From Babesia bigemina (Eukaryota), in NCBI RefSeq assembly GCF_000981445.1, contig NC_027218.1, positions 2,294,001 to 2,358,000 of the forward strand: 64,000 nt of DNA, given 5' to 3'. Made by a program: the position numbers and the translations under genes. The notes under the pieces are model-generated. The model was given only the letters and a program-made list of their open reading frames with translations. It did not search any database and was not told the origin of the DNA. Each line of letters starts with the position of its first letter. Position 1 is the first letter of the stretch. Of the stretch, positions 322 through 57,500 are shown in pieces.

Positions 322-3300
322 ATGACAGCTAAAAGCGCTGCTGTAGGCACGGCACATGGAGTGCCGCTGAGCACGTTGAAGGAGTGTCTTATGTTCCTGG
401 AGTGGTTGAAAAGTCATAGTAATATGCAACGCCAGACGGCCAGTAACTTGTATGAGCGTATTAAAAAGTATTATAAGATTAGTAACATGAAAAACGACAT
501 TGAGAAATCGTTGTCACAATTCCTCACAAACGTGTCGAACTTTTACAATCGATTATGTTATGTACGTGTTGCTGGAAACTATAATGATAAAACTGCCGCA
601 CAAATTGTTGACACGCTTTTAGACTGTCTACCCAGATTTATCTCTGCGTTGCATTATCTTTGGTATGATGTGAACGCGACTTTTGAGCAACTTGGTGGCG
701 GTGGATGGAAGAATGATTATCCAGGGGCGATATCCAGTTATTGGTACAGTAGCTATGGCGGTGACCTTGATGCGTATCTTCATGCACAGCCTAGCAATAA
801 ATACGGTGGCCTGATGCCAGGTGGTTTCACCTCTGGCGATGTGAGGTATAATCAGTATTACGATGGCTATCGCCAGGGTTTCAATATGGCTCCGGAACTT
901 GGGGTCATTTTGAATACATCACGACATAATTATTTGCTCGACGTCTTAGTTATATCCATTCTTTCTGATTGCGGTACTCGTATGGTGAACAGTGCAAACG
1001 TTCTTGCATTGGTGGGAACGTTTTGTGCCATTGTTGAGACGGACCCAAGTGGTTCAAAATTAAAAGAGGCTGTGCAAAAAAAAGACACGTGCATTAAGTG
1101 GACTGAATTAAAACAACATTGCACAACAGTGAAATCTCAAATGCATAAAGTGTTCAGGAAAGAAGCCTTCGACCATACCGGCCAGTCACTAGAATCTAAA
1201 GATATCAATATGGACGAATTTGCAAAAGTCGCGGCGAATTGGCTTAGAGCGAATTTGAGAACAGTGAGAGATAACTTGCAGAAAATTAAAACGGATGATC
1301 CTGCCGTCGCCGCTCCCAATAAGGACAACCTTGGGGCATATTTCACAGAAAATCTCTACCCCTACGGGTTCATACTTGAAGACAATCACTTTAAAAGGAT
1401 GATTAGCCGTCGCAATGCATTGCTTCAACATCATTGGCGTGATGTACTTAATACACTTCTCCAACCGCGAAACGGTCTGGATCGACTTAGGGAACTTTTA
1501 GAAGGTGGGGCATGTCCACCCAAAAAACCTGAAATACCGCCTTCAACAGATATAAAGAGTGACACAGCGAGGACGGTTGCCACCAAAACGGAAGCAACTA
1601 AAACCGAGGCGGCGAAGCCCGTGGTCACCAAAGCCGAGGCGGCGAAGCCGACTGCCACCAAAACTGAAGCGACGAAACCTGTGGCTGCGAAGCCGACTGC
1701 CACTAAAACGGAGGCCACCAAGACTGAGGCTGCGAAGCCTGTGGTCACCAAAGCCGAGGCGGCGAAGCCGACTGCCACCAAAACTGAGGTTACGAAGCCC
1801 CAAGCTAAGAATGCTGGAGGAAGTACAAATCAAAATACTAGTCAAAGTGGAGGAAAGCCTGCAACTTCATCAGTCGGCAAATCTTCTCCATCTCCGCCTC
1901 CCGGTAGTGCAGGAGCGCCAGGGCAGGCAGGGCCTAAAGGTGATCAAGGCAATAAAGGGTCTTCTAGTACCAAGTCTACAACATCTTCTTCGCCTCAAAA
2001 TACTGTTCAAAAGCAACAGCTTCCATCTCAACCGCCGCCAGTCGCTCCCCCTCAAGCCCCTGCCCCCGGTACTCCTGCAGCCCCTGCTTCTACTAGTCAG
2101 TCCGGTGGCGGGAGTGGGAGTACAAATGGCGGTGGTGCTCGAAGTCAAAAGGCTGGTGGATCTACATCAACTGTCCAATCTCAGCCTTCAAGTGTCCAAA
2201 ATTCATCCCCTCCGTCACTTGGTGCCCCTAGTACCGGTGGTGGTAAGGGGCCTGCTTCCGGCGCTGGTCAGCAAGGTGGTACAAGTAAGGGTTCACCGGG
2301 CAGTGGTTCTAAAGCTACGCAGCCTGCTGCAACTCAAGTTCCTGCGCAAGCTCAGCCTCCAAGTGGTGCAAGTTCAGGCATTCCGTCACCTGGTGCCCCT
2401 GGCTCCAGTGGTCGTCAGGGTGTGTCTAGCGCTGGTCCACAAGGTGGCAATGGGCAGGGTGCACCGGGCGGTGTTACTAATAGTTCACAGCCTGTTGTCA
2501 CTTCACAGAATGTTATTACTCAGCGTTCAAGTGATTCCAGTCTTGTCCCTCCGTCATCTGGTGTCCCTAGTCCCGGTGGTGGTCAGGTGTCTACTTCTGT
2601 GCCTACTCAGCAAGGTATTACAAGTAGAGGTGCACAGGGCGGTGATCCTAATAGTTCACAGACTGTTGTCCCCCAAGCCCCTGTCTCTTCTCAGCCTCCA
2701 GGTGTTGCAACCCAAGGCTCTCCGTCATCCAGTGTCCCTGCTCCAGTCGGTGGTCAGGGCACGGGTGGCCAGGGGTCCACTTTTAGCACCACTCAACAAA
2801 ATGGTCAAGGTACATCGCAAGGTTCCACCAACGCTTCTAATACGACATCCACTGATTCGGGTGCTGGTACAGGTGGCGGAGCTGGAGGGGTTGGCGGTAG
2901 TAATGGGAAGGGGAAGGCGCAGTTGGATCCAGCGGCCGAACAGTTGAAAAAGCACCTAGATGTATATGGAGGCAAAATAAAACGCAAAAATGATGATGCC
3001 AGAAAAAACATGGAGAACATATGGAAAAAGGCTCAAGAAACGTTGGAAAAAATTAATGAAAATAAGTTCCGAGCCGAATTAGATGAAAAGCGTAATACAC
3101 AAACCGCAGTAAATAGACCTCAGGCACCAACACTTTCTCCAAATCAGCTCACCCCTCAAATTCATCCTACCTCTCAAACTCCACCCACCCCCTCAATGCA
3201 GCCAACCCCTCGAATTCCACCCACCCGTGCAACTCAACCCATCCCTCATGCTCCTGCGCCTTCCAGTCCAAGTCTCACCACCCGTGTTAGTAATCGTCGC

Positions 3301-6300
3301 CCGTACTTTGTTCCAGGAGGTGGGAGGACACGTCCGCAAGACGAGAGTGTTTGGAGCATTAAGCCTTCCGATATAACCGGGACAGTCTTAGAGGACACAG
3401 ACTCCATAAAACAGCAGAAAATGCAGACATTAAATGCAGCCAAGGCGAAAATGAAATTTTGGGATTTAGACGCTGAGAAGGAAGCATTTAAAGTTAAAGT
3501 TGCAAAGTCGAATGATGAGGAACAAAAAAAAGCAGCAGAGATATGGAAGCAAAAAAAAGAAAAGGGACAAAATGACTGGCAATTCGACAAATTTAGTAAA
3601 ACTATCGAAATGCGGAATGAAAGAAAAAAGCAAGCCGCCAAGAAACTTGACGAAACATTGAAGGACAACCGAGAAGAAATCTGGGACATCCAACAGAAAC
3701 AACACGTGGATGATATATCCAGCAGTGCAAGCAATGATACGAAAAAACGACTACAGCAGAAACGGTTGCTGCAGAAGAAACAATCAGATCAGCAACAAGT
3801 CAGTCGACATCCCGCAACAACTACTCCCTCCACTCCTCCAAGCCAACCCAGCCGTCCTGTCGATGGGCCTTCCCGTCGGGCCCCATTCTTTACCCAGCAT
3901 CCCACCGATCGCACTGTTAGTCAGCGTCCGCAGTATGTTCCACAAATCGAGCAATACGGGAACCTGGACGCTGATGTTGCACCTAAAATATTCATGGATG
4001 GAGATGTGATGGAAGAGACGTCCCCGCAGGGAGCACTACACTTGGATGGTAATGAAGCCTTCACCTTTGCTGAAATGAGGAATGAGGGTTTACGTGAACA
4101 AAAGAAACTAGAAGACGAAAAACGCTTTGAAGAGATGCGTGAACAAGAAAAGAAAAAGATATATGACCGTCACAAGTTGCTGAGGGAGGCTGAAGACAGA
4201 TTAAATCAGCAACAAGAGGAAATTAAAAAGGCAGTACAGATAGATGCAGAACGCATGAAGGTGTCTAACGCCTCAGATTTTCATGTCGTGGTTGCAACAC
4301 ATCCCAGCGACCCTTATGGTTTCGACTTCGACATTCCACAGCGAAATATTAAACCAACAACTATCGTTGATCCCCCTTTTAAAGGGGGAATGCCACTTGC
4401 AGTCACAGTCCCCGCAACTGATCTGGAGATACATAGTCGCGATTATGAACATAATTCATATGCCGAACGTTCCGCTGACTCAGAGATTCGGCCTAGGGAT
4501 GTGTACTTCGATTTCCAGCACGACGACCCATTCTCTTCTCTTGGTTCCATGCCGATTCACCCCCAAGTGCTCATTGAAAAAGCGGATTTCAAACCTTCTA
4601 AATGTGAGGAGGATGATACCGAATTATGCGCCGTTGGTCACGGGAGTTCTAACGTCGACCTCCAAATCCAAGTTCCCGACCGCACAATCCAAGACGATTC
4701 TTATGACGTGAACATAGACGAGCCTCCTCTCCCAAACCTCCAACCCCTGGACCCAATAGACCCAGTCACCACCGCCATCAATCTCGACATAGAACCAATC
4801 GATCCTCCGGAGTCTCTCCCAAACAGGTACGTGGATCCTTATACGCACGACGCTCAAACAGTCGGTATGTGCATTGCCCCGTGGATGAAACAGACTGAAA
4901 TCGGAGACTCCACTGACATCCCCGAGACGGAGCTGTTCCCCGCCCAGGCCCCTCGCACTGTCCGGGATATGCTTCAGTGGCTGGCAGGGCTTAAGAGCGA
5001 AAAGCATCATAGCACTCTCAGACAATGTATTGATAAGGCATTTGGTGGCTCCCATAGTGACTTTTCACAGCTTGCACTCTCCGTCAACGGCTCTTACATC
5101 AGACCAAAAGATGTCTTCGACATACTCCAGCTTACCTCCATGTTTGCAGGTTCCGTGCTCACCTCCATTGCACCTAACTGGAGAGCACATGTGTCATCAA
5201 AACCTGTGCAGCCTAAGCCATCTGACCAATCCGACGAGCCTGATTGCTGCGCCCTCATCTGCCAGCTGCGGGACTACGTCTACGCCTGCCACCACCAGTT
5301 GGAGTTCCTCAAGTCGCAGTGTAATAGGGATAAACTAAGTGGTGGATGGAAACATGATGAGTACGGTAGAGACATCACTCCTACCAATTCTCACCTCCAG
5401 GCGTTCCTGACTGACGACTGGGACTCCACCTTCGACACTCACCCCTTCGACCCGTGCAACCTGTGCCACAAGAGCAGGATAAGGATGGGATTTCAGGCGA
5501 AGGACTTGCCTGAGAAATCACAATTGGGGAGTGTCATTTCTGCCATCCTCTCTCCCAGCTGCGGCGGTAGTGACCCCTTGCTGACGCTGTCCTCCTACCT
5601 CAACTGCCTCACCAGGCGGACGCCGCGCACCACCGGGGAGCTCGTATCGTACTTCCACAATTTTGGAAATTCACTTCATGATATGTATTTAGATACATTG
5701 TCTCCACTGGGCACTGCACTCGCCAAGTCACATGCCGACTGCCCCGACTGGGACCATCTTGGTCGCCACGACCTCCAAGCTGTCAGTGGCATCCGTGGTC
5801 AAGAGTCTCTCATATCGAAACACAACTCCAACTACAGCAATGACCATCTACGTACCCTGTCCACACTGGTCGGCTGCGGTAGTGACCCTGACAGCTGCCA
5901 TCCACACTGCTCGCCCATCACCTACCGGGCCTACGCCCTGTACTCCCAGAGCTTCGCCCACACCTACCTCAGCTGGGCGGTGTACCTGCCGGACCTACTG
6001 TGGGAGTCACTTCAAAAGCTGTTTTATGAACTCAAGAAGCATGTTAGCACCAAGTGTTCATCCCTCCACCTGTGTTCCACTGCCCTGCCCCTCCTCTACA
6101 CTCACGGGTTCACGCCACCGGAGGGCAAATCGCAGTCACCACTCACATGTCAACAGGTTATCGCCAAGCTGCAGGAAATTGTCAACGGTGGCCCTATCGC
6201 AACCCTCATGACTACCATGGACAATTTCCTCTACAACATCCGGGAGCCGTTCATCTACACCATCGTCGCACTGTGGTCCACCGCATTGCTGGTCCTCGCC

Positions 6301-6477
6301 AACACGATGCTATACCGCCTGGACATACTCCACATCCGTTCGCACCTTATCCGCACCAAGGCCTCCCACCTCATCGACGTCAAGGCCCTACTCACTAAAG
6401 GCCGGAAGATGCTCTCACTTTACAAAGACGTCGACTACTTCGACGAGGACCCTATTGGTTTACTTGGTTTCAAATAG
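322..6477 (+). CDS. Variant erythrocyte surface antigen-like (ves1-like) protein, 2051 aa, with a large low-complexity central region
   Basis: Uninterrupted ORF. N-terminus PLSTLKECLMFLEWL is shared with the 61551 paralog. The centre has T/K/E/A repeats, G/S/Q/P-rich sequence and coiled-coil segments. The Cys/His-rich C-terminal domain (PRTVRDMLQWLAGL, LQAFLTD, SYLNCL, YLSWAVYL) and the TM plus tail (DNFLYNIREPF...VALW...RLDILHIRSHL) match the C-terminus of the 54548 gene and the Babesia VESA-like architecture. Confidence 0.85.
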   Translation: MTAKSAAVGTAHGVPLSTLKECLMFLEWLKSHSNMQRQTASNLYERIKKYYKISNMKNDIEKSLSQFLTNVSNFYNRLCYVRVAGNYNDKTAAQIVDTLLDCLPRFISALHYLWYDVNATFEQLGGGGWKNDYPGAISSYWYSSYGGDLDAYLHAQPSNKYGGLMPGGFTSGDVRYNQYYDGYRQGFNMAPELGVILNTSRHNYLLDVLVISILSDCGTRMVNSANVLALVGTFCAIVETDPSGSKLKEAVQKKDTCIKWTELKQHCTTVKSQMHKVFRKEAFDHTGQSLESKDINMDEFAKVAANWLRANLRTVRDNLQKIKTDDPAVAAPNKDNLGAYFTENLYPYGFILEDNHFKRMISRRNALLQHHWRDVLNTLLQPRNGLDRLRELLEGGACPPKKPEIPPSTDIKSDTARTVATKTEATKTEAAKPVVTKAEAAKPTATKTEATKPVAAKPTATKTEATKTEAAKPVVTKAEAAKPTATKTEVTKPQAKNAGGSTNQNTSQSGGKPATSSVGKSSPSPPPGSAGAPGQAGPKGDQGNKGSSSTKSTTSSSPQNTVQKQQLPSQPPPVAPPQAPAPGTPAAPASTSQSGGGSGSTNGGGARSQKAGGSTSTVQSQPSSVQNSSPPSLGAPSTGGGKGPASGAGQQGGTSKGSPGSGSKATQPAATQVPAQAQPPSGASSGIPSPGAPGSSGRQGVSSAGPQGGNGQGAPGGVTNSSQPVVTSQNVITQRSSDSSLVPPSSGVPSPGGGQVSTSVPTQQGITSRGAQGGDPNSSQTVVPQAPVSSQPPGVATQGSPSSSVPAPVGGQGTGGQGSTFSTTQQNGQGTSQGSTNASNTTSTDSGAGTGGGAGGVGGSNGKGKAQLDPAAEQLKKHLDVYGGKIKRKNDDARKNMENIWKKAQETLEKINENKFRAELDEKRNTQTAVNRPQAPTLSPNQLTPQIHPTSQTPPTPSMQPTPRIPPTRATQPIPHAPAPSSPSLTTRVSNRRPYFVPGGGRTRPQDESVWSIKPSDITGTVLEDTDSIKQQKMQTLNAAKAKMKFWDLDAEKEAFKVKVAKSNDEEQKKAAEIWKQKKEKGQNDWQFDKFSKTIEMRNERKKQAAKKLDETLKDNREEIWDIQQKQHVDDISSSASNDTKKRLQQKRLLQKKQSDQQQVSRHPATTTPSTPPSQPSRPVDGPSRRAPFFTQHPTDRTVSQRPQYVPQIEQYGNLDADVAPKIFMDGDVMEETSPQGALHLDGNEAFTFAEMRNEGLREQKKLEDEKRFEEMREQEKKKIYDRHKLLREAEDRLNQQQEEIKKAVQIDAERMKVSNASDFHVVVATHPSDPYGFDFDIPQRNIKPTTIVDPPFKGGMPLAVTVPATDLEIHSRDYEHNSYAERSADSEIRPRDVYFDFQHDDPFSSLGSMPIHPQVLIEKADFKPSKCEEDDTELCAVGHGSSNVDLQIQVPDRTIQDDSYDVNIDEPPLPNLQPLDPIDPVTTAINLDIEPIDPPESLPNRYVDPYTHDAQTVGMCIAPWMKQTEIGDSTDIPETELFPAQAPRTVRDMLQWLAGLKSEKHHSTLRQCIDKAFGGSHSDFSQLALSVNGSYIRPKDVFDILQLTSMFAGSVLTSIAPNWRAHVSSKPVQPKPSDQSDEPDCCALICQLRDYVYACHHQLEFLKSQCNRDKLSGGWKHDEYGRDITPTNSHLQAFLTDDWDSTFDTHPFDPCNLCHKSRIRMGFQAKDLPEKSQLGSVISAILSPSCGGSDPLLTLSSYLNCLTRRTPRTTGELVSYFHNFGNSLHDMYLDTLSPLGTALAKSHADCPDWDHLGRHDLQAVSGIRGQESLISKHNSNYSNDHLRTLSTLVGCGSDPDSCHPHCSPITYRAYALYSQSFAHTYLSWAVYLPDLLWESLQKLFYELKKHVSTKCSSLHLCSTALPLLYTHGFTPPEGKSQSPLTCQQVIAKLQEIVNGGPIATLMTTMDNFLYNIREPFIYTIVALWSTALLVLANTMLYRLDILHIRSHLIRTKASHLIDVKALLTKGRKMLSLYKDVDYFDEDPIGLLGFK
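1575..1800 (+). repeat. Coding tandem repeat (KPTATKTEA / KPVVTKAEAA) in the ves-like gene
   Basis: Repeated 15/30-nt modules such as accaaagccgaggcggcgaagccgactgccac are directly visible. Confidence 0.9.
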
Positions 6478-7343
6478 TAGTTATCGCATTAATGTAGTCA
6501 TTACTTGCCTAGTGATGGATCGCACTACAGCACTAGTGGTTATTTGTGTTACTGCAGCATCTATGGCACTGTGGTGAGAGGAAAGCGTGACTGCTGCCAG
6601 GCATAACCAGACTCATGGAGACCACTTAATAAATAATATACCTCAGTACGTTGAGTTATGCGTTGCTTGTGAGACATATCTGCCATCCGACCTTGCCAGT
6701 GTAATTGGGCGCTGGGTGGAGAGCGACCAACGTAGGCAGCTGACAAGTGCCGTGCTACGTGAGTAACTATGTATCTGCGTTGTTACAACTTGCAATGCCA
6801 GCAATGTACGTCACTGGGAAATGTCACCGGGACTGCAACGTGATGGACAGTGGACGGCGTAGTTAGGTGGCATTGGTGGTAGCAGTGTATATTACTATTA
6901 TATTAACCAACCGATGTGGCTTAGGTAGGTACTTATTACATGACATGTAACAGCTGTCGTAGGCGGTGCCAACGTTGTGCGGTCTGTATTGTATGGAGCT
7001 GACTGCGCACCTGGCACCGGTTGACCTGCATGCCACCGCAAGGATGGTATCAACATGCTTTACCTCGGTAATACTGCAGCTGTGATAGCTGCATAGTTGT
7101 GATGTGAGTGGCGGTGCACTGGATGGTCATCATCTTGCTGCTACCGTGGCGCCGATGGGATACGGTCAGTGTCCTTCGCTGAGGTACGTGGTTCATGTCT
7201 GTGCTGGTTGATGGGACGGGCCACGCCTTGCTGAGTTGCGTGTTCATGAGTGGTTGGTGCGTGCTTGGTAGGTGCGTGTTGATGAGTGCGTTGCTAGGTG
7301 ATTGATGTTCGCAGGTTGAGGGGACTGGGAGGGGAGCGGGAAG

Positions 7344-7772
7344 ATGGGGGAGTGTAGAGATTGTGGTAAGAATTGTTATCTGCCTCACGTGTGTAATTGC
7401 TGCCCATGGTGTTGTGACAAATGTAATGGTAGTAGCTGTGATCAATGTTCGCAGGCAAACAGACCCCTCAGACTACGGAAGGTATGCAACGCTTTTCTAT
7501 GTGAGCTTAAAAAGGGTACTTGTACCAAGATTATCAGTTGTCCATGTAAGTGTTGTGAGCAGAAACGCTCTACTTCCGGCCACTCCTCTACATTCAGCGC
7601 TCATTCTCAGACCGACACTCAACCGCATACCTCCCCCGCCCCTTACATCATCGTCCCCGTCGCCCTCATCTTCATCGCCATATGCGTCATGACCACCTTC
7701 CGCATCCGGCCGTTCCACAAGGTCCGCGATTTCTGCGCCCGCAAAATGAACGGTTTACATCGCACTCATTAA
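7344..7772 (+). CDS. Small cysteine-rich protein with a C-terminal TM helix (ves-adjacent family)
   Basis: 142 aa with CNCCPWCCDKC, an S/T linker, hydrophobic PYIIVPVALIFIAICVM and a basic tail FRIRPFHKVR. Clear paralog of 52053-52487. Confidence 0.8.
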   Translation: MGECRDCGKNCYLPHVCNCCPWCCDKCNGSSCDQCSQANRPLRLRKVCNAFLCELKKGTCTKIISCPCKCCEQKRSTSGHSSTFSAHSQTDTQPHTSPAPYIIVPVALIFIAICVMTTFRIRPFHKVRDFCARKMNGLHRTH

Positions 7773-9053
7773 TAAACTCCGACACTTCGTATTATCGCAC
7801 TTAGATCACAGTAGTACGGATTAACGGCACAATGCTTGTCTAATGACGTATTATGAAATGCCACATAATGTTGTTTTGGCAAGTACCCGGCGACACTTTC
7901 ATGCATCATATTCAGAATATATAGGATGCACATTGGCAAATTGAACAAGATGGCCCATTTTACGTTTGTTATCGGACGTTTCTGCAGCCTCTATATCTGT
8001 TCGTACCTTGTTTTTTCATACGGCGATCCCTCTATTGTGCCTCGCAAACTCACTCAACCAAGGACTGCCGGTGTCAGTCAACTTCTCACTTTCCTTTTGC
8101 AGATTATCAAGTAACTGAGTAATGCTTTCGTCATCTTACTAACCGTACCGTTGTCACAAGCCTACTTTCCATACAATCTATAGATGGGTCGCACGACACC
8201 CTATAGCCCATCGATTGCGTATTTAACTCCCTAGAGCGAGTGGCTCAGGGGACAGTCCAGGGCAGTTTTGTGAATAGCTTGAACATCTGTTAAACACGTC
8301 TCTGCTGTCTGAACTGCGCATAGAGAGGCACGTAAGCGACGTTTACATGGCCGTTTGTGAGATTCGAAAATCTGACTAACAGAGGGGTGGATGACACCCA
8401 TGGGAATCATTCTGTGACCTAACATCAACTAAGACAGTATGCGTGGAAGTGTGCTAGTGTATTAATTGACGTAATACGTTGATGCTGTTTACTGTGTTTT
8501 TAATCTTATTGTTAGATGTTTACAGGAACATTGTGATATGGGTGTGGACGGGTTATACTTAGATGGTATAAAGGGTACGGGAAAATTTCAAATTACGTTG
8601 GGCATTTATTGCGAACGCCTTGGGTTATCATGTGCAATGGTAGAGTATGGCAGGATTTCATTCGATTTCACGTGACTAGTGGAGGGTATGTGGGCTGGGT
8701 GGGGGCGATAATGCTAAGGTATGCAACAGGGCCAACCGATCGACATTACAGATGCCTGGCGTTGGAATGACACACATTGACGTTGTCAACATGTAGTTTT
8801 CTATGAACATGGTGCGCCACAGAGAGGCTACGAAGGCGCCACTTAGTACAACGGCAACAGCCGTTGGTCAACTTATGTTAATGTTGTGACTCATGCAAGC
8901 AGAATTGGTGAGGATAAAGTGGCGACGAGATAGCATTAGCGTGTGTTGCTACTTCAGTGCCATGACATAGTTGCTGCAATAATAAACTCTACGCCAAGCC
9001 AGCGTATGCCCTTGGAAGGACGGCGTGGTAGCGGTCAATGTTCGCCTCCTCGG

Positions 9054-9530
9054 CTATTGTGTTACCGACGAAATTAATCGGGATCTGCCGGGATGCCTGG
9101 GCGAGATGGCGAATGTGGCGCAGATCTTAGTCATCAACGCGTGGAACTTCTCGGTAAACATAGATCGCATCACAAACAAGAATGCTAAAATAAGAGAAAC
9201 GACGACTATGACACCCAACCATATTCTGCATATATCCTGGGAACACAGCTTTCCAAGGTCGGCGGGGCATTTCTGTAACTGTGATAGCCTGAAAAGGTTT
9301 GGAGGTCGAAATATGAATCGATTAAAGTTAAATTGGTTATGGTTTGCCAATCTAACAATACTTTCCATTAAGCGCCTCAGCCATACTCTGAACTTTTGCA
9401 TCCTTACTTGTAGTTTTTGTATACTGATGATGAAGTACATTCTATTATACAACATAGTAGAAATGCCACATTGGTTAATCGTAAAATCCTTAATAAGTGT
9501 TGCGGAACGCTGATTAAGGTAAAAATACAT
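9054..9530 (-). CDS. Hypothetical small protein with one C-proximal TM helix (5' end uncertain)
   Basis: ORF contains IWLGVIVVVSLILAFLFVM preceded by three Cys, a topology similar to its neighbours. No recognisable homology. Confidence 0.35.
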   Translation of the reverse strand: MYFYLNQRSATLIKDFTINQCGISTMLYNRMYFIISIQKLQVRMQKFRVWLRRLMESIVRLANHNQFNFNRFIFRPPNLFRLSQLQKCPADLGKLCSQDICRIWLGVIVVVSLILAFLFVMRSMFTEKFHALMTKICATFAISPRHPGRSRLISSVTQ

Positions 9531-9817
9531 CTTTGACAAGGTGGATCAACTTGTCGGGACTCATGATGCACAATGGGGAGGATGCGAGGAACTAGGTTGT
9601 TAAGTTAAACAGTAAATCCGATAATGTGCATCGAGTGGGGGTTGGTGGGACTTCAAACCAGATGAGGCTCTGGCAGCATATTGGGCTGGACAATCGAAAA
9701 ATATTTCGTAGGAATAAATCTTCGAATTCAAATGGTGAGGCATGAAACGGTTATATACGGTAAATAATCGACATTGTGATGTACTATGCCTGTAAGTATG
9801 TTATACCGGATTTAATT

Positions 9818-10006
9818 TTACGAGAGATGTTTGCTTCCAGGGCCGGTGCATGCCGAAGTGTACCCGGTCCACTCGTAGACTTCTTTGGGGATTAGGTAAG
9901 CCGTTGACTTGGTCTTATAAAGGTAAATAGCATAGCCGATTAACGATGTGAAGAGTATGAAGGCGAGTACAGCGAAAACAACACCTGACGCCGACGCAAA
10001 ATCCAT
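9818..10006 (-). CDS. Hypothetical 62-aa single-TM micro-protein
   Basis: ATG is in the same gggaagATG context as the Cys-rich genes. Strong TM segment VVFAVLAFILFTSLIGYAIYLY is followed by KTK. Confidence 0.5.
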   Translation of the reverse strand: MDFASASGVVFAVLAFILFTSLIGYAIYLYKTKSTAYLIPKEVYEWTGYTSACTGPGSKHLS

Positions 10007-12362
10007 CTTCCCTTACGGATTCCTTAACAATAAGCCCTGCGAAGCAATGAACAAATTACCCAAAACGTCCGACACCTGTAGTAAACATACCACACGAAAT
10101 ACCCAGATCGATACATGCAGTCTGCCGTCTACCTATTGGCCAGGTGTGGGTGGTTCCAGATTCCGCAATACTGACACCGTGTAACTGCGTGAACAATGCA
10201 TGCATTGATGAGGCAGGTTCTCGAGGTCAAGATTATTGTCAAGATGTTTTACTATGTATGATACACGATATCGGTCATACCCTCACTAGTCTCAGGTTAC
10301 GCTATCCTTCCACCACCTCTGGTGGGACGACCTTGGTAGCATCTTCCATGATCCTATTCGTAAGAGAACCTGAATCATATTATTGTCCCTGCCATCTCCG
10401 TATATGTCGCCAACTTTAGGACGTATTCTCGGATATTTTAGCCAAACGTTTCGTACTGTTCAAAGCCTCTACTAAAATGGCGCGCAACATTCATACATGC
10501 CAATTCAACATCTCCTCTGAATGATGGCACGTCAAACACTCGCTGCTTTCATAGTGATTACTCGTAACAGATGGTCGCAACTATGTACAATTGGTGATAT
10601 AAATTCATAGATTGGTCCACCTGCACTCACCTGCTTCATAGTAATCCTTCGTCTCTCGCCAGCGCATCACCAGTTAACACTCGGTATAGGAAATCTTAGA
10701 TCCGTTAACATAGTTCCAACGTTATGCTTATGACACCGATAGCCATTTAGTCCGATATGCTTTCCCAACCCGAAGTAAGATGTACCCAATGAGCAAAGCA
10801 GAACAAAGGGCAACGTTCTTGCATAATTCCTCACAACGTGTGGCACCTCCTTTACTTCCATTCATACAGCTATGCATACGGTGAAATTTTCCAGTCATCC
10901 AATGGTAACTTAAGTTTAAAGCCACTTAGTCCATAACCAATCTGCTTCACCTCAAGGAGGAGCTGACCTCGGAATTTACTGATGGCATCGTTATAAACTC
11001 GCTCATGTTGCTTTTAAGCATTTATCATGACCGCAATATCGACCACAGCTATAATCAATGGTATCATGTTATCCATGACGGCGGTGGTAGTTGGTAGACT
11101 GTATACGTGAACTGTTGCTGTGGTTAGATTAATACCAAGGGATATGGCATGGACAATATAAAAACTACAGTCATTATAGTTCATATAGAAGCATTTCGGC
11201 ATACCAGTTGTCACCAACTGACGCCACCCATCAACTGGATCGAACACACCCGGACATCGGCGCCTACTTAGCGATGGGGATGCCCAGAACATGACGTAAT
11301 ATGAAATGATGTAACAAACGGCTGGGATGTGTTAACACAGTGACGTAATGATTCCTGTATACCATTCGGTGTCAGTCTGTATGGGACATTCATTATTTGT
11401 CGCCATAACAATTGCGGGTAACAAATTTAGACTGGAGATTATAGCAGGTTGATAGGTAGAATAGAGTGAAGACCAGTGGGTGACTGACGTGGTAAAATGG
11501 CTAACGGCGATGGCCTTGTAAACAAGTGGCAACAACGTTCTGCTCGCTGATATCGCATACTGATTAAGCGAATTGATCATGTGTCGATGAGAATGTCCGC
11601 CAATAATATGTAATAACATTAAAATGCTATCGTTATCGATACGTGTTGCAGTCGTCAACCCACATTGTTGATGTGGCCTGTGGTGTTAGCAAGACATACA
11701 ATTTGGTGATGTGAGAGAACCTTCGGATCACGAGTAAGCAATTGATTTAAAACGTATTGTATGTGCGCACAAATGGGAGCAATGTTGTAACCCGCAGTAC
11801 GAGGTGCTCAAGATGTAGCTGTTGGACAGTAACTGGTTGGGGCAACTTCGTGATGCAAAGAGTCAACGAGCTGATTAATATTTAAGCTCTAAGAATATAG
11901 GGGCGGTAGTAACGAATTAATGACCGAGGTTCATTATTAGTCCAAAACTGCATGCTCTCATGATTTTTTTTCCAACTAACGATTTGGGGTTGGCTAAATT
12001 ACCCACATAATTGATAACTAGAGCGCACAGTAGGACATCGCTCAGTATGACGAAGCAGCATACAGCGCGCAATTTAAATTAGAAATATAATCAAATGACG
12101 TACAGCTGGAAATAATCAACAGTTGCATGTGTTAGGAACCGTATATTATGTGGCGGATCTATGCCAACTACTGTCCCATGCATCTTAAACGCAAGAAGCG
12201 TAGAAATATTTTTACCTCTCCCCAATGCTAGATAGCAGAACAAGCAGAAGGTATAACGCTGTACACCTATGCTGCGGTGGTTATGTTATTTCCTCCCCCA
12301 ACCGCTACTATAGCCTGGGTAGCTAAAGATTTCTCCAAGGTTATTTGTCAAGTGAGGCTAAA

Positions 12363-12800
12363 ATGACTAATGGGGAGTGTGGATGTAAAGAAGCAAAGTG
12401 CGAGAATGGAGGTGCTACGTGCTGCAAGAGTATCGGTTGCACAAAAGGCTTAGTATGTAAATGTTGTCCCTGTACGTGTAATATTATATGCCCGAAACCG
12501 GGAGATTGTTACTGCTGTCCGTGGTGTTGTGAAAAATGTCCAAATTGCACATCGTGCAAGGCAAAATACGAAGAACGCAAAAACAAGGCATGTGATCACA
12601 AGGGCGCTGGGAGGTGTAAATATTTGTTCACGTGTCGATGTCATTGCTGCATACTTCGCATTGGCATTCTAATTGGCACATTGGCACTCTTAGTCTTCCT
12701 AACGACATTAGTCCACATCTATCCAGGTAACGCTCGGAAATTGAGGATTGGAGTGACGAATTTATTTAGTGAGGTGTCGAAGCCATCCATCTCATATTGA
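12363..12800 (+). CDS. Small cysteine-rich protein with a C-terminal TM helix (same family as 7344)
   Basis: First ATG at 12363 (MTNGECGC). Contains CYCCPWCCEKC and the TM segment IGILIGTLALLVFLTTLVHIY. Confidence 0.75.
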   Translation: MTNGECGCKEAKCENGGATCCKSIGCTKGLVCKCCPCTCNIICPKPGDCYCCPWCCEKCPNCTSCKAKYEERKNKACDHKGAGRCKYLFTCRCHCCILRIGILIGTLALLVFLTTLVHIYPGNARKLRIGVTNLFSEVSKPSISY

Positions 12801-13436
12801 TCTATATCAAGCAATGACTCACAGCCTCCGATAACAACCTATCGCATTTTCTTGCAAACATGGAGATTGTTTAATTAGCGTTATTAGTGATGCGTGCCCG
12901 CTGAGCGGTGTAAGTCGATGACGTCATTCGATGTTGAGAATAGACGGATTAGTCAGGCAACTGGCCTTTCACACCAACAGCCGAAAATCGCGATTCTGCC
13001 CGAGGTCTCGACTTATCTAAATGTCACGAGGGTATAATGTCATTGAGTAGGTACGTGTCTAGAAGACGTGCAAAGCCCTGTCCATGGGCTACACACTGCG
13101 TGATGCGGTGGCATTTCCGAAGTCATAGACAGTGAAAGGAGTGGTTCAGTGACATTTATGAGTGAGATTGCGGCATTTGCTGACACTGTTGCGTCGCACC
13201 GCAGCAATCCTAGACAGCCGGAAGCGCACCTATGGCGCTGCGCGGATTAAATGATGCATGGAGCGTATTCTGCGTTCCTCTATCCCAAGTAGTTGACCTC
13301 CATGTTAGTTTTACGGTGATTGCAATTAAAGCTCTCAACGCAGGTGTTGGTCGTAAAGGTGTAATGTGTGCGAGCGCCGTCTGATGTCGGAGCGCAGAGT
13401 GAATGCTGTCGCACATCTCCCTATTTGAAGGCAAAT

Positions 13437-13886
13437 ATGGAGGAAAAACGTCCTTTCTGTCAGTTCAAAATGGGAAACAATAAATACCATGAGGAGCCGA
13501 TTGGCTGTGAACCGTCTAAAAATTGCATGTGTATTGTAGACCCCGGTGAGTCCTGTGCCGACTTGTGTGAAGGGTGTGGAGAGACTACGGCTCGTAGAAG
13601 TCGATTGGGTTGTGCATGCCCATGTTGTGGACGTCGCATAGCCAAAATATGCGGCGTCATTGCTGCAGGTGCAGTCGTGTTGGCGGTTATATTCTTCATT
13701 TATTACCTCGTTACGCATCCGCTTCCGGACCTCCAGAAAGCCCGTGACTACTTCTCGGATATATTGGGTACCAGAAAGTTTCGATTCATTCCCAGGTCGG
13801 AGTTGGACGTACCCAAAATTACGCATATAACTGAGGAGATGGACATTAATCCCTACTCCTTCTTCCCGTCCAAGGACCTCATGTAG
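13437..13886 (+). CDS. Small cysteine-rich single-TM protein (more divergent family member)
   Basis: First ATG at 13437. Cys-rich N-half (CMC...CADLCEGC...CACPCC) followed by TM ICGVIAAGAVVLAVIFFIYYLV. Confidence 0.65.
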   Translation: MEEKRPFCQFKMGNNKYHEEPIGCEPSKNCMCIVDPGESCADLCEGCGETTARRSRLGCACPCCGRRIAKICGVIAAGAVVLAVIFFIYYLVTHPLPDLQKARDYFSDILGTRKFRFIPRSELDVPKITHITEEMDINPYSFFPSKDLM

Positions 13887-23608: not shown

Positions 23609-24211
23609 CTAAAGAATTTCAATCGGACATGAACCCCTCCTGCAGTTCGGTCCCATTCTCGTTTCCATCTCAATTTCCAGTGCCGATTTCATTTCCCGGC
23701 CGTTTCCACCTGCTGCACGTATGCGTTCGAGGACGAGGTGGTACCATAAAACCGTTAAACTGAGGTACAATTTAAAAAACAAGGTCATGACCGCTGCCAG
23801 AAGACCGCGGGTAACCAATAAGAAGAACAAATTCTTAAAGATTTTCGCATCATTCAGACCGGAGCGAACATACATCCAGAAGATTAGGTTTCCCACAATC
23901 ATCCCTATAACGTATGAGGGATGTAGACATACAATGACGTGGAAGGGCAGGCTCAAGTAAAGCCAGAAAGTTCCCGGAATGAATCCTATCAGCGTAATCA
24001 CGTTGAATACTACATTCAAGATGCAGTGAATTAGAAACCCGGAGCCGTGCATTTGGGACTCATACAGGTAGTTGCTAACAAACATCTGAATAGTCACTGC
24101 TGCCTCTAAGGCGTGCAGGACCATGAGGGTATGCACAACATTCAGACGACCCCCGAAACTCCCCTTCACATTTTCCCGGTGCATATTAATCAAAGTCTCT
24201 TTGAACGCCAT
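23609..24211 (-). CDS. Hypothetical multi-pass membrane protein, paralog of 24442-25106
   Basis: 200-aa ORF with about 4 or more hydrophobic segments and the C-terminal motif LERIRAAGGNGRE. Confidence 0.65.
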   Translation of the reverse strand: MAFKETLINMHRENVKGSFGGRLNVVHTLMVLHALEAAVTIQMFVSNYLYESQMHGSGFLIHCILNVVFNVITLIGFIPGTFWLYLSLPFHVIVCLHPSYVIGMIVGNLIFWMYVRSGLNDAKIFKNLFFLLVTRGLLAAVMTLFFKLYLSLTVLWYHLVLERIRAAGGNGREMKSALEIEMETRMGPNCRRGSCPIEIL

Positions 24212-24441
24212 CTTGACTTCAATAAATATTATATGCCGCGCGGCCGTGCCTCTCTGCGCCGTACCCTGCGACGAAAATTCCTCGCATCACCGAATCTGTG
24301 AATTTTAGACGCGAGTAGGCGTCGCGGCGAGCCACATACAACGTCACGTTTTTAAAAATACGCTAATTATAGTTTGTTAATTTTTAGCATGAGGCGTTGC
24401 AGGAACTCCTGAGGTACCGTCTTGCTGGATCGTTTTCGGCT

Positions 24442-51814: not shown

Positions 51815-51960
51815 TTAATGATCGCTATGCAAACCGTTCATCTTGGGGGCGCAGAAATTGCGGACCTTGTGGAACGGCCGAATGCGGAAGATGGTCATGA
51901 AGCGGATGACGAGGATGATGAGGGAGGCGGGGACGATGATGATGGGAAGGACGGCGGGGG
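51815..51960 (-). pseudogene. Orphan duplicate of the Cys-rich family C-terminal TM/tail segment
   Basis: Reads IIIVPASLIILVIRFMTIFRIRPFHKVRNFCAPKMNGLHSDH*, nearly colinear with the end of 7344-7772, but has no Cys-rich N-terminus. Confidence 0.65.
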
Positions 51961-52052
51961 TAATGGTCACCTCACTGCTCATGTGACTGATCATCAGTGC
52001 AATCACTACTGTCTAGCACATTAGATGTCAGTTGCCAGTTAGGTAATTGTCA

Positions 52053-52487
52053 TCAGCTGCGCAGTAGATACCGCACCCTGTGGAACGGCCGGATGCGGAA
52101 GTAGACCATGACGCAGATGACGAGGATGATGAGGGCGACGGGGGCGATGATGTAAGGGGCGGGGTTGGTGGTAGACTGTTGAGTGTCGGTTTGTAGCTGA
52201 GCTGTGCGGGAAGAAGAGGAACCGGAGGCAGAGACGGTATGAGAAGAAGTAGACAGCTGTTGACGAGAGGTATAGCGTTTCTGCACACAACAAGTACAAT
52301 CGCATGTGTCTTCGTTACACTGAGCACATCGCGAAGGATTGCAAGGGTCTCCTCCACTTTTGCGCAAATGAGCAAACTTGAGACATGGTAAACAGCGTAT
52401 ATTACATACATTACAACAGTACGGACAACAAAAGCACTCCACATTCTCTCGGCATTTCTTGCCGCACGTACACTTCAATACTCCCAT
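52053..52487 (-). CDS. Small cysteine-rich protein with a C-terminal TM helix (paralog of 7344)
   Basis: 144 aa with CFCCPYCCNVC and PAPYIIAPVALIILVICVMVYFRIRPFHRVR. Confidence 0.8.
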   Translation of the reverse strand: MGVLKCTCGKKCRENVECFCCPYCCNVCNIRCLPCLKFAHLRKSGGDPCNPSRCAQCNEDTCDCTCCVQKRYTSRQQLSTSSHTVSASGSSSSRTAQLQTDTQQSTTNPAPYIIAPVALIILVICVMVYFRIRPFHRVRYLLRS

Positions 52488-52500
52488 CTTCCCCTCTCCC

Positions 52501-53343
52501 TCCCAGTCCCCTCAGCCTGCGAGCATATCAATCACCTAGCAACGCACTCACCAACTGCAACACGTACCACTGACGCTCCCACTCCCCTCAACCTGCAAAC
52601 ATGTCAACCACTTACGCAAGCACTCACCAACTACAACACGTACCACTGACGCTCCCACTCCCCTCAACCTGCAAACATATCAATCACCTAGCAACGCACT
52701 CACCAACTGCAACACGTACCACTGCCGCTCCCACTCCCCTCAATCTGCAAACATGTCAACCACTTACGCAAGCACTCACCAACTACAACACGTACCACTG
52801 ACGCTCCCACTCCCCTCAACCTGCAAACATATCAATCACCTAGCAACGCACTCACCAACTGCAACACGTACCACTGCCGCTCCCAGTCCTGTCAACCTGC
52901 AAACATGTCAACCACTTACGCAAGCACTCACCAACTACAACACGTACCACTGACGCTCCCACTCCCCTCAACCTGCAAACATATCAATCACCTAGCAAAG
53001 CACTCACCAACTGCAACACGTACCACTGCCACTCCCAGTCCCCTCAACCTGCAACCATATCAATCACCTAGCAACGCACTCACCAACTGCAACACGTACC
53101 ACTGCCACTCCCAGTCCCCTCAACCTGCGAACATATCAATCACCTAGCAACGCACTCACCAACTGCAACACGTACCACTGCCGCTACCAGTCCCCTCAGC
53201 CTGCAAACATGTCAATCACTCAAGCAGCACTCACCAACTGCAACACTACCACTCCCAGTCCCCTCAACCTGCGAACATGTCAATCACCTATGCAAGCACT
53301 CACCAACTGCGACAGCTACCACTGCCGCGCCCAGTCCCCTCAT
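52501..53343 (-). repeat. 76-bp tandem array (11 units), each an intron-like 35 nt plus an exon-like 41 nt
   Basis: The acceptor-side ctgc on + recurs at 52517, 52593, 52669, 52745, 52821, 52897, 52973, 53049, 53125, 53201 and 53269. The period is 76, with one shortened unit. Confidence 0.95.
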
Positions 53344-53860
53344 CAACACTCACCCTCACCCCTGTATCCCCCCAGCCCAGGCCACCGACACCCACGCTGC
53401 CCGGGATACCACAGCTGCCCTGACGCGGCGCATGTGATTAGCACCAACTGTCACTCTAAATTATTCACTATTCGCAACGCCATTAAAATTGCAGCGAACC
53501 CCGTGCGCTCAACTCCCACAGTGCAGCAGCACCGTGCTACGAGCCGCGGTATCGGCGCCATACTGGCGGAGCGTGTCGGCTACGTGCCTAAATGTGATAT
53601 TAACAATCGCTACATCGCTGCCTATAAACGCTACTTAACGAGGCCAACGCGTATTACGCCACCCTGCCAGCGACTCGCAACACACGACTTAGGTCACCCG
53701 CCGCGGCCATCACGACCGCCTACGTTAGCGACCAATCACCCAGCCTCACGTGACACTCACTCAATAGGCAACGTGGACACCTCTCACAGTCAACGCCTAA
53801 CTCAACGCACCAGGCAATCAACGTGCTACAACACCCACCAAATTACGGTTCATCCACCAG

Positions 53861-54408
53861 CTCAACACTTTGCCTGGGTGCTAGGTTAGCACCTTGCCTG
53901 GGTGCTAGGTCAACACGTTGCCTGGTTGCTTGCTTAGCACTTAGCTTGTGTGCCAGCTTAGCACTTTGCCTGTGTGCTAGGTCAACACATTGCCTGGTTG
54001 CCAGCTTAGCACGTTGCCTGAGTGCTAGCTTTTCACTTTGCCTGAGTGCCAGCTCAGCACTTTGCCTGGGGGCTAGATTAGCACTTATCCTGGGTGCTAG
54101 CCTAGCACTTAGCTTGTGTGCTAGCTTAGCACTTTGCCTGGTTGCTAGCTTACCACGTTGCCTGGTTGCTTGCTTAGCACGTTGCCTGGGTGCTAGCTTA
54201 CCACGTTGCCTGGCTGCTAGCTTAGCACGTTGCCTGTGTGCTAGGTTACCACTTAGCCTGGGTGCTAGGTTACCACTTTGCCTGGGTGCTAGCTTAGCAC
54301 GTTGCCTGGGTGCTAGCTTAGCACGTTGCCTGTGTGCTAGGTTACCACTTAGCCTGGGTGCTAGCTTAGCAGTTTGCCTGGGTGCTAGGTCAACACGTTG
54401 CTTGGTCG
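53861..54408. repeat. 24-bp minisatellite (about 23 degenerate units), consensus TTGCCTGGGTGCTAGCTTAGCACG
   Basis: Periodicity is directly visible and appears as ARCLGASL repeats in the shadow ORF. Confidence 0.9.
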
Positions 54409-54547: not shown

Positions 54548-57500
54548 TTACGGCTGTAGATACGATATCTTGGCAAGCCTTCCGACTTGCGCTGCAGCCA
54601 ACAATGACTGCGCCGTTATCTTGTGCGACGACGGTATCCTCAGGTGTGACCTGATGTGCAGCACATCCAGTCTGCCAACCATTACGCAGATGAGGTAGAA
54701 GAGAGATAGTGACCAGAGCGCGACGGTCATCCACAGGAACGGTCCGCGGATGGCGAACATGAAATTATCAATGGCTTTGAAAAACTTCACAAGATGTGAG
54801 TCCTTCTCAAATGCCTCCGCAAATACATAGCAGAAATCTCTGCACGTGCGTTTTGTATGCGATTGTCTATCCCCGTTCAGCCTCTCCGGATTGCCGAGAA
54901 CGAAGCCGTATTTTGCCAATGTTGGCAGCGTAGCATTACAGCTGACAATGGATTTGCAGTTGCGATCGTGATATCGTGGCGGATCTTGCGCTATGGTTGT
55001 AGTTGGACACCCCTTGACGCACGCTTTCACGTGACAATTCGATCCCCTGGCACCGCATTTGGAATTGCACTCATCATACAATTTCTTAAGCAGATCGTAG
55101 AACGTCGCCGTCAGGTAAACGATCCACGACAAATATTTATCGGCGTGTTTTGACGAGAACGTCTCGTAGATGGATTGACTGATGGGACGGAGATAAGGAC
55201 CGCATACGACGGCTTCCCTTGATAAGCATACGAGACTGCCCAGACTACCATCGGAGTGGCCCTTCTTCAATGCTGAGTGACTAGGGGTAAATAAGTAGTA
55301 GACTTTCAACTCACCATAACTACGTCCGAAATTGGCAGCTTTAACACTCTCTTCAAATGCCTCTCTCTTGTGTCCGTTACCACTCATACCCCAGCGATCG
55401 GTGAGATGATAGTAGAAGCTGAACATGTCCGCCAGCGTTTTCGGCGCACTAGGCAGAAGGCAGTTCAAGTAACTGCACAGTCTAGTGAGAGGGGAGTTAG
55501 GACGGCCACAGAAATCGTAAAGCACATCGCATATATCCTGGCCAATCATCGTATGCGACGCGATGGCACTGATGTCAGCGAAGCCCATTGGCGTCCTGCA
55601 CGGCATACCAGGTGTACTACCACACGTGCCACATGACAGACTCGATCCCCTAGCTGCTACCGAATGCGGCAGGTGGCCTTTCAATCCGTCCTCCAAGAAC
55701 GATTGCAGTGGCGACTTGACGCCGCAGTTGGGATATTGCCCACCCATTTGGTTGCCACTTTGGTCGTGCCTTTGGTCGCAGTCTTGCTTAGGGCACTGCT
55801 TCGTGTTGCACTGCCAGCCCGACCCACCGATGTACTTGCCGTAGTGGCAGTCCCTCCAGCCGCTTAGCTGAGCATTGTGCTTACACTGCTGCAGCAGGAA
55901 GTACAGCTGGTGGTAGAGGCGCTTAAGCAGGTCGAACAACGTACACAGCAGTTGAATCATGTTGGCAGGGTACTCTAATTTCAGCGAGTTGCTGGAGAAA
56001 TCACACGCGTAGATTCCGTCCTTGTGACCGTGCCCTAGGATAGCGGTGAGGACGGCGTGGGAGTCAGATGAGACCTTGTAGAGCGCTTCGTCGATATGCG
56101 TGTGTTGGAAGGGAGACGGATGCGCTTCGAAGGGTTGCAGCGTTTTAGTACCCGGCCGTTCTTTGTCCTCCTTCATGAACTCAGATTTAATTTGCGCCTT
56201 GAGCCTCTCGTACACGGGGTTGAACTGCAGGCCGCAGCACCAGACAAGAATTTCGTAAACGGAGCATGGAGCCCTTGGTTTGTCAACACGGATAAGGTGG
56301 CAGACTTTGAGGTACGTATTTAAGCAATCATAGAGTTTTCGGATGAGACCACTTTCCTCCGCGATGGTTACACCTAGCTCGTCCGACCCGGATGTCGATT
56401 GACGAATGCCGATGACGGGAGATGACAGTTGGCTGAACAGATTATGCGTTTCGTTGGTAAGGTGTTTGAGAATGCTGCTACCATTGAAGTCATTTCGGTG
56501 ATTCAGTTCGCCGTGCTCAGCGTTCTCAGGACGACGGACGTCATACCCGTTGTCGCGGAAGAAGAGAGCGTGGAGGCTGGAGGTAGGTGCTTGAGCATCA
56601 TAGATTTTATGGGTGGTCCAATCGTATATATCAAGGCCATGCTTAAAGGTAGTCAATTCTTGATATAAGATGGGCGTGATGGTCAAGCCGATTTTCGCGT
56701 AGTGTCCCCGTTCCTCGTCTTGCCATTGTCTCCCGGAGTAACTGCTTACGTAGGTTTTGTCAAGTTCGTCGACCAAAGCAGCAATTCCCCCTTTCAGGGC
56801 TTGTAACATGACCGTCGAAGAGGTGCCGAATTGCTGAGGAGCGAGTTGGCCGAGAGTAATCTTAATTGTGTCTAAGTTATCTCTAAATTGGTGATTGAAA
56901 TGTTCGGAAGATTTGAGTCCATCGAGCAAAGTTAGATGAGCATTATGCAAGGGCTCGTATTTTTGAAAGTCTGATATGAAGTCTGTCTGTGACTTCAAAT
57001 AATGACAAAAACGTCTGGAGGCGTTGTATGCTCTCTGAGCTGCCTGGCTGAGTGGAGACTTCTCTGGAGGAGAGTGGGTGGTCTTGATGTCCTTAATGAC
57101 TTTAATTCCTTTATCCGTTCCAATGAAATACTTTTCTATTTTATTCATGAAACCTTTAACGCCCAAGTCCAACTCCTTAGTGATCAAGCCAGGCAGCGGT
57201 TGTAATTCCGCCTCAGCTTTCGTTGAAAAAGACACGAGCAGACCCTGTAGAGATGTAACGTACTGTTCTCTGGCCTTAGCAATTAGAGCTTTCTTAGCGC
57301 TCTCCACTTGTGAATCGACGTCTCTTCCTAGTGCCTGGATGGTGGCGGTACCGGAGTGGTCAACACTTCCGAGGAATCTTTTGGCCGTCTTGAGTGCATC
57401 TGCTACCGGGCCTATTAGGTTGTGAAGATCATCATGAATTTTTTGAAGGCCGTTGCCACCGTTATTCAGGGATATGTACTTTTTGAGTTGAGTCAATTGC

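What the first reader, a model, noticed from the sequence alone, without database searches (positions are those of the whole stretch)
7344..13886. Family of small Cys-rich single-TM proteins linked to ves-like loci
Seen in sequence: 7344, 12363 and 52053(-) share CxCCP[WY]CCxxC, further CxCxCC clusters, a C-proximal TM and a basic tail, and none has an evident signal peptide. 13437 is a more distant relative. All lie directly downstream of, and co-oriented with, a ves-like gene, and none lies in the core block. Established: B. bovis ves loci are interspersed with smORF genes, and VESA1 has a Cys/Lys-rich domain. Inference: this is a distinct ves-companion family, possibly palmitoylated, metal-binding or disulfide-knotted membrane partners of the variant antigen.
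Basis: partly seen in the sequence, partly recalled or inferred. Interest (0 to 1): 0.72.

Follow-up and report, generated by a model that had tools for sequence, protein, structure and literature searches.

The report
Cysteine-rich mini-antigen family beside Babesia ves1
Next to its large variant-antigen (ves1) genes, this Babesia blood parasite carries a family of about 30 small genes for predicted membrane-anchored proteins with a fixed 18-cysteine frame and highly variable sequence in between, which likely form a second, overlooked set of variant surface antigens.

Summary
ORFs 7344 and 52053(-) have 33 database relatives; all 19 named ones are Babesia bigemina 'hypothetical proteins'. The architecture is a roughly 70-aa domain with 18 Cys (11 of 13 intact copies; 18% non-Cys identity), then a Ser/Thr/Pro stalk, one predicted TM and a short basic tail. 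Cys codons swap synonymously while the Cys are kept (pS 0.85, pN 0.32), so the frame is under protein-level selection. 13 of 14 chromosomal relatives lie within three accession numbers of a ves1 gene (background 11%). 12363 is a weak, linker-less relative. 13437 belongs to a separate small family whose link is unproven. Both sit 6-7 kb from the ves gene, not directly downstream. New features: a 76-bp repeat leader of intron-like units, and three interchangeable TM/tail cassettes. No Pfam, PDB or literature match was found. Best reading: VESA-like, signal-less, disulfide-framed mini variant antigens. Expression, location and VESA binding are untested.

The parts
322..6477 (+). ves1-like gene (2051 aa), upstream neighbour of 7344
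   Evidence: Degenerate VESA1 hallmark motif PRTVRDMLQWLAGL at aa 1544 (motif as given in PMC6630957 passages); C-terminal part matches the 54548 ves gene at E 1e-33
7278..7343 (+). single copy of the 76-bp leader unit, with an intron-like acceptor and a 4-codon micro-ORF (MFAG) just before the start codon
   Evidence: blastn 90% over 74 nt to 52483-52555; micro-ORF at 7305
7344..7772 (+). core family member, 142 aa: 18-Cys domain, S/T/P stalk, predicted TM about aa 101-119, type-B basic tail
12363..12800 (+). divergent relative, 145 aa: extra N-terminal Cys cluster, both family motifs, no stalk, TM directly after CxCxCC, no leader repeat
   Evidence: beats 1000 of 1000 decoys on an HMM built without it; no database homologue of its own
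13437..13886 (+). member of a separate small B. bigemina family (CxCxCC, TM, conserved 57-aa tail); link to the core family unproven
   Evidence: 3 named relatives, one (P0023) letter-identical apart from an omitted 43-aa Cys segment and 11 N-terminal residues; decoy test negative; profile comparison 90% probability on 68 columns
51818..52012 (-). second TM/tail cassette (type B) behind 52053; joins in frame to the first TM if a predicted 64-nt GT-AG intron (52076-52013) is removed
   Evidence: the same two-TM layout appears in gene models P0008, P0022 and P0032
52053..52487 (-). core family member, 144 aa: 18-Cys domain, stalk, predicted TM about aa 112-130, type-A tail RIRPFHRVRYLLRS
52500..53342 (-). 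76-bp tandem array (11.2 copies): about 41-nt G-rich exon-like part plus 34-35-nt GTGAGT...GCAG intron-like part holding an ATG
53859..54388 (.). 24-bp tandem array (22 copies) between the ves1 stop codon and the leader array
54548..59869 (-). ves1-like gene (1773-aa ORF with C-terminal TM), upstream neighbour of 52053, divergent from another ves1-like gene starting near 61550

Best explanation
7344 and 52053 belong to a B. bigemina multigene family of about 30 small, predicted single-pass membrane proteins that sits beside ves1 genes and likely acts as a second set of variant surface antigens, with a hypervariable domain on a fixed 18-cysteine, likely disulfide-bonded frame. Shown: family size, the Cys frame with hypervariable fill, protein-level conservation of the Cys, near-identical TM/tail cassettes, and linkage to ves1. 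Inferred: each gene is transcribed on its own through the repeat leader, whose short introns are spliced out so that the Cys ORF has the first AUG. The TM acts as an uncleaved signal-anchor with the N-terminus outside and the basic tail inside, as described for VESA1. The stalk lifts a nine-disulfide knob above the parasite or infected-cell membrane. Recombination at ves loci duplicates the cassette and homogenises the anchor while the exposed knob diversifies. 12363 is likely an old, stalk-less offshoot.
For: 33 relatives at the reporting thresholds (19 named, all B. bigemina; 14 more unnamed). 13 intact domains: 11 have exactly 18 Cys, mean identity 39%, non-Cys identity 18%. First Cys cluster of 7344 vs 52053 (22 codons): pS 0.85, pN 0.32, all 7 Cys kept while 4 switch TGT/TGC; TM part pS 0.12, i.e. 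recently homogenised. Positive-inside pattern in most relatives with a type A/B tail: 3-6 basic residues after the TM, 0-1 before it. 13 of 14 chromosomal relatives lie within 3 accession numbers of a ves1 gene vs 10.8% background; 11 of 14 vs 9.4% with labelled ves1 only. VESA1 has no N-terminal signal, a C-terminal TM and a short cytoplasmic tail (PMC6630957 passages). All 12 upstream ATGs within 52500-53343 fall inside intron-like units, whose 34-35 nt is close to two frame-restoring 40-nt introns in core genes of the window.
Against: No transcript, peptide or localisation supports any member. Only 11 of 33 database models hold both Cys clusters (9 hold one, 13 none), so many copies may be frameshifted or mis-modelled. 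The TM part shows pN equal to pS (0.13 vs 0.12), so no codon-level selection is visible there, and it is a low-complexity (NTC)n tract. Translocating a 100-130-aa N-domain without a signal peptide is assumed by analogy. Orientation relative to ves1 is known for the two window copies only. Structure models were low-confidence (pLDDT 58 and 62), so disulfides are not shown.
Confidence: 0.55

Rival explanations
1. The proteins are made but are tail-anchored or internal, with the Cys domain in the cytosol binding zinc (metallothionein-like clusters) or carrying palmitates.
For: CxC, CC and CxxC spacing and a CxCxCC end resemble metallothioneins (recalled); no signal peptide and a tail of only 14-25 aa; in 12363 and 13437 the CxCxCC and basic residues abut the TM on the N-side, as for a cytosolic acylation cluster.
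Against: Tails of +3 to +6 charge favour a cytosolic C-end; there is a mucin-like stalk, a conserved aromatic in CCP[WY]CC and an even Cys count; no metallothionein or zinc-finger family among Pfam hits to 24 members at E up to 0.1; 18% non-Cys identity among paralogues is hard to explain for an internal protein.
Confidence: 0.2
2. The cassette is a mostly silent passenger of the ves1 3' flank: repeats and an old ORF copied along with ves1 duplications, now largely pseudogenes or a recombination element.
For: 22 of 33 models lack one or both Cys clusters; pN equals pS in the TM part; G-rich tandem arrays (364 G vs 90 C on the sense strand) could serve DNA-level recombination; none of the four window ORFs is in the protein collection as read here.
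Against: Synonymous saturation with all Cys kept; 13 intact copies keep the frame at 18% non-Cys identity; the gene models are ab initio (PMC4066756 passages), so missing clusters may be modelling errors.
Confidence: 0.15
3. The proteins are dedicated subunits of the VESA1 complex, supplying in trans the Cys/Lys-rich domain that B. bigemina VESA1 lacks, co-expressed with the adjacent ves1.
For: Linkage to both ves1a and ves1b types; B. bigemina VESA1 lacks the CKRD (PMC4066756 and PMC6630957 passages); similar Cys/Lys-rich make-up.
Against: No VESA-like protein among the 31 hits of the exhaustive profile search, none longer than 280 aa; no similarity to the neighbouring ves1 (probability 1.9%); ves loci are general hotspots where other multi-copy genes gather.
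Confidence: 0.1

Closest known systems
B. bovis smORF family
   Same: Small, hypervariable multigene family interspersed with ves1 genes (PMC4066756, PMC6630957 passages).
   Different: smORF has a signal peptide and no TM; this family has no evident signal, one TM and an 18-Cys frame. PMC4066756 found no smORF homologues in B. bigemina.
B. bigemina ves2
   Same: Short genes at ves loci in the same species.
   Different: [quoted passage not shown]
VESA1 and its cysteine/lysine-rich domain (CKRD) of B. bovis
   Same: No signal peptide, C-proximal TM, short tail; variable Cys/Lys-rich domain thought to be disulfide-stabilised.
   Different: One tenth the size; lacks the VESA1 hallmark motif and C-terminal domain; no VESA hit. 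A direct comparison with a CKRD sequence was not possible.
Plasmodium RIFIN/STEVOR/PIR small variant antigens (architecture recalled)
   Same: Variable Cys-framed ectodomain, conserved TM and basic tail, many copies beside the major variant antigen genes.
   Different: No real homology: RIFIN hit 2 of 24 members at best E 0.004, among other generic single-TM families; no signal peptide; much smaller.

Membership tests
smORF | N-terminal signal peptide | tested here: not met
   Hydropathy only: best 8-residue mean in the N-terminal 32 aa is 0.07-1.55 for the four ORFs; no dedicated predictor was run
smORF | No transmembrane domain | tested here: not met
   One 19-residue segment of mean hydropathy 2.5-2.8 in each ORF
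smORF | Location among ves1 genes | tested here: met
   13 of 14 chromosomal relatives within 3 accession numbers of ves1
ves2 | Homology to the 5' end of ves1, no TM | tested here: not met
   No blastp hit better than E 0.39 to either window ves1; TM present
VESA1 | Conserved C-terminal domain and P(K/R)TIREILYWL-type motif | tested here: not met
   Motif found in both window ves genes but not visible in the small ORFs; profile vs ves1 probability 1.9%; no VESA Pfam hit
VESA1 | Homology to the CKRD | tested here: inconclusive
   No long protein among 31 hits, but no CKRD sequence was on hand for direct comparison
Variant surface antigen (functional class) | Multi-copy, hypervariable domain on a conserved anchor | tested here: met
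Variant surface antigen (functional class) | Surface exposure and switching of expression | not testable with these tools
   No RNA or localisation data could be obtained
Metallothionein | Match to a metallothionein profile; soluble, aromatic-free Cys peptide | tested here: not met
   No such Pfam hit in 24 members; TM and conserved W/Y present
Core family (for 13437) | CxCCx[WY]CCxxC motif and HMM score above decoys | tested here: not met
   Motif absent; 195 of 1000 decoys score as high; the profile match keeps a distant link open

The most novel reading that the evidence does not exclude
B. bigemina has an unrecognised second variant-antigen system of modular mini-antigens. A hypervariable nine-disulfide knob is paired with one of three interchangeable TM/tail cassettes by recombination or splicing. 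Translation is gated by a leader of up to eleven tandem micro-introns, each holding a start codon for a four-codon upstream ORF, so that only fully spliced transcripts make protein.
Probability: 0.2. Interest if true: 0.8.

Novelty: new variant of a known kind. Interest (0 to 1): 0.58.

Why it matters
B. bigemina causes cattle babesiosis, and its described variant repertoire is ves1a, ves1b and ves2. An extra family of about 30 or more small, hypervariable, membrane-anchored proteins at ves1 loci, mis-modelled or missing in annotation, would add a new layer to host-parasite interaction. Its near-invariant TM/tail and leader sequences give a direct handle for family-wide RT-PCR, antibodies and diagnostics. 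The repeat leader offers a testable splicing-linked control of expression.

Tried and rejected
No whole genome was held, so copy number, strand and distance could not be measured genome-wide. RNA runs: no RNA holder listed; this is no evidence either way. Proteome table of PMC4066756 (supplement file 3): 9 of the 19 named family tags and 2 of the 13437-family tags were searched and none found; uninformative, as it covers 366 proteins (8.2%) of another isolate, and supplement file 1 could not be searched. Supplements of PMC9531838: the same 11 tags were not found, but B. bigemina ids occur there only in a VESA list and in text, and no strand data were obtained. ESM Atlas: best score 0.79 for 52053, no usable hit for 12363; 13437 did not complete. 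AlphaFold2 with 9 and 24 sequences: pLDDT 58 and 62, only the TM confident; no fold search was run on such models. PDB sequence search: only TM-level hits at E 0.3-0.9. Rfam: 0 matches in the window. Metagenome contigs: 195 pattern matches, none confirmed. Earlier scan findings: nothing. Rejected: that the ORFs are terminal exons of the ves genes (both ves ORFs carry their own C-terminal end and stop); chance ORFs; membership in smORF, ves2 or metallothionein. No complex prediction was run, since adjacency is the only ground for binding.
Full report
Observation. The four ORFs exist as described: 7344-7772 (142 aa, 20 Cys), 12363-12800 (145 aa, 26 Cys), 13437-13886 (149 aa, 12 Cys) and 52053-52487 on the minus strand (144 aa, 19 Cys), each with one hydrophobic segment. 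CxCCP[WY]CCxxC occurs in 7344, 12363 and 52053 only. In about 12 kb of intergenic DNA there are 4 ORFs of 130 aa or more with at least 8% Cys and a TM; 300 simulated sequences gave none, and no motif hit. The window is an apicomplexan core block (carbonic anhydrase-like, CTNNBL1, DnaJ/TPR, SRP54-type GTPase, FtsH, DEAD helicase) flanked by ves1-like genes at 322-6477(+), 54548-59869(-) and from about 61550(+). Distances from the ves stop codon are 866 bp (7344), 2060 bp (52053), 5885 bp (12363) and 6959 bp (13437), so 'directly downstream' is true for two of four.

The family. A profile of 7344, 52053 and 12363 found 19 proteins among 399 candidates, all B. bigemina hypothetical proteins. An exhaustive HMMER search of 1.84 billion representatives gave 31 hits, 14 of them new and unnamed. 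Those 14 share the same tails, and several the same leader-derived N-termini, so I infer the same lineage but cannot show it. No hit exceeds 280 aa. Of the 33 database models, 11 hold both Cys clusters, 9 only the second and 13 neither; 20 begin with a translation of the leader repeat. The annotation was ab initio (PMC4066756 passages), so incomplete models may be modelling errors or frameshifted copies; without DNA I cannot tell. In the 13 intact domains (11 database, 2 window), 11 have exactly 18 Cys in 64-74 aa, with 39% mean identity and 18% outside the Cys. A Ser/Thr/Pro stalk follows, then one of three related TM/tail cassettes: A (...ICVMxYFRIRPFHRVRYLLRS), B (...PFHKVRDFCARKMN...) or C (...LDLCIFRFPVGRNIRDFLVRKIPFCIAFYS).

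Is it coding? Over 22 codons of the first Cys cluster, 7344 and 52053 differ at 85% of synonymous and 32% of non-synonymous sites; all 7 Cys are kept while 4 switch between TGT and TGC. This is one pair and a short stretch, but with the 13-way conserved frame it argues for selection on the protein. The TM part is different: pS 0.12 and pN 0.13, i.e. recently homogenised DNA with no visible codon-level selection. Old variable heads on a recently shared anchor are what gene conversion in variant-antigen families produces (inference).

Linkage to ves1. Accessions of the 19 named relatives were compared with the ves1 labels in Table S2 of PMC5660447. Five relatives on small contigs were left out. 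Accession order was taken as gene order, which the locus-tag increments support. 13 of 14 lie within three numbers of a labelled ves1 or ves1a-cluster gene (background 10.8%); 11 of 14 with labelled genes only (9.4%); 8 of 9 against a chromosome-restricted background of 24%. P0019 is the miss, 31 numbers away. The copies are not independent events and no strand data were obtained, so the test shows proximity, not 'downstream'. PMC4066756 notes that other multi-copy genes gather at ves loci, so proximity alone does not imply partnership.

12363 and 13437. Against an HMM built without them, 12363 beat all 1000 decoys with a shuffled N-part and 13437 did not (195 of 1000 as high). 12363 has no database homologue (0 of 5 candidates), no stalk and no DNA similarity to the core copies. 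13437 has three B. bigemina relatives (3 of 24 candidates) with a near-invariant 57-aa tail. Model P0023 treats the Cys segment as a 129-nt intron, while P0024 keeps an equivalent Cys segment. A shallow profile comparison gave 90% probability over 68 columns of CxCxCC plus TM, so a distant link remains open.

Between the ves stop and 52053 lie a 24-bp array (22 copies) and a 76-bp array (11.2 copies); one 76-bp unit sits just before the 7344 start. Each unit is a roughly 41-nt G-rich part plus a 34-35-nt GTGAGT...GCAG stretch, close to two 40-nt introns that restore the frame in the CTNNBL1 and FtsH genes of this window. Each intron-like stretch holds an ATG that opens a micro-ORF (MFAG in 8 of 11 units, one residue different in the other 3); removing these stretches leaves no ATG before the Cys ORF within the array. 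The units descend from one ancestor, so this is a single observation, not eleven, and splicing is not shown. Behind 52053 lies a second, type-B TM cassette (51818-52012) that joins in frame if a 64-nt GT-AG intron is removed; three database models have a two-TM layout. 'Single-TM' may therefore hold for only some transcripts.

Mechanism. Best reading (0.55): small signal-less membrane proteins with the N-domain outside. The basic tail and uncharged stalk favour this, VESA1 offers a precedent for export without an N-terminal signal (PMC6630957 passages), and an even Cys count with hypervariable fill suggests a disulfide-framed, immune-exposed knob. Topology, disulfides, expression and exposure are all inferred. 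AlphaFold2 gave no confident fold (pLDDT 58 and 62). Rivals: cytosolic metal- or acyl-binding domain (0.2), silent passenger cassette (0.15), dedicated VESA1 subunit replacing the CKRD that B. bigemina lacks (0.1).

Comparison with what is known. No Pfam family reached its cut-off for the four ORFs; 24 aligned members gave only scattered generic single-TM hits; the PDB gave none of note. smORF and ves2 have signal peptides and no TM, and the experimentally confirmed Babesia export list in PMC9477259 (passages) holds nothing like this. Seven full-text searches turned up no description of the family. What I saw: PMC4066756 abstract, part 4 of 10, passages and searches of its supplements except file 1; PMC5660447 parts 2-3 of 5, searches and part 4 of 61 of Table S2; PMC9531838 supplements only; PMC10463595, PMC6630957 and PMC9477259 passages. 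Subscription papers and theses were not searchable, so absence from print is not proven. The RIFIN/STEVOR and metallothionein comparisons are recalled.

Verdict. A real, ves1-linked, apparently undescribed B. bigemina gene family with a distinctive architecture; a new variant of the known kind 'small multigene family at variant-antigen loci'. Function is inferred and expression is not shown. Interest 0.58.

Noticed in passing
window 52500-53342 (-) and 7278-7343 (+): 76-bp repeat whose units look like alternating micro-exons and 35-nt introns, each intron-like part holding the ATG of a 4-codon micro-ORF; strongly G-rich on the sense strand, so possibly also a recombination element. Its translation forms the N-terminus of 20 of 33 database models.
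   Followed up: partly
window 53859-54388: 24-bp tandem array (22 copies) right after the ves1 stop codon; absent at the 7344 locus; role unknown.
   Followed up: no
window 54548-59869 (-) and about 61550-64000 (+): Divergent pair of ves1-like genes, the arrangement described for loci of active transcription; the 59869 ORF appears to have further upstream exons near 60100.
   Followed up: no
named relatives P0013, P0018, P0021: 3 of the 4 chromosomal relatives in the accession range seen sit one number from a gene of cluster 3 (the expanded 6-Cys-domain cluster of PMC5660447), hinting at a ves1 / Cys-TM / 6-Cys cassette.
   Followed up: no
window 9054-9530 (-): 158-aa ORF with a strong TM near its C-end (hydropathy 2.99), on the opposite strand between 7344 and 12363; no similarity to the family; not in the protein collection.
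   Followed up: partly
window 13437-13886: Separate small B. bigemina family with a near-invariant tail ending KITHITEEMDINPYSFFPSKDLM (a tyrosine-containing, possibly sorting-type end); gene models disagree on whether the Cys segment is an intron.
   Followed up: partly
window 14217-16856 (-): 879-aa protein with an N-terminal hydrophobic stretch, a split carbonic anhydrase-like domain and a hydrophobic C-end, possibly a surface or GPI-anchored protein.
   Followed up: no
window 23609-25106 (-): Three short multi-TM ORFs in a row within the core block, no Pfam hit for the longest; possibly a small tandem family or exons of one gene.
   Followed up: no
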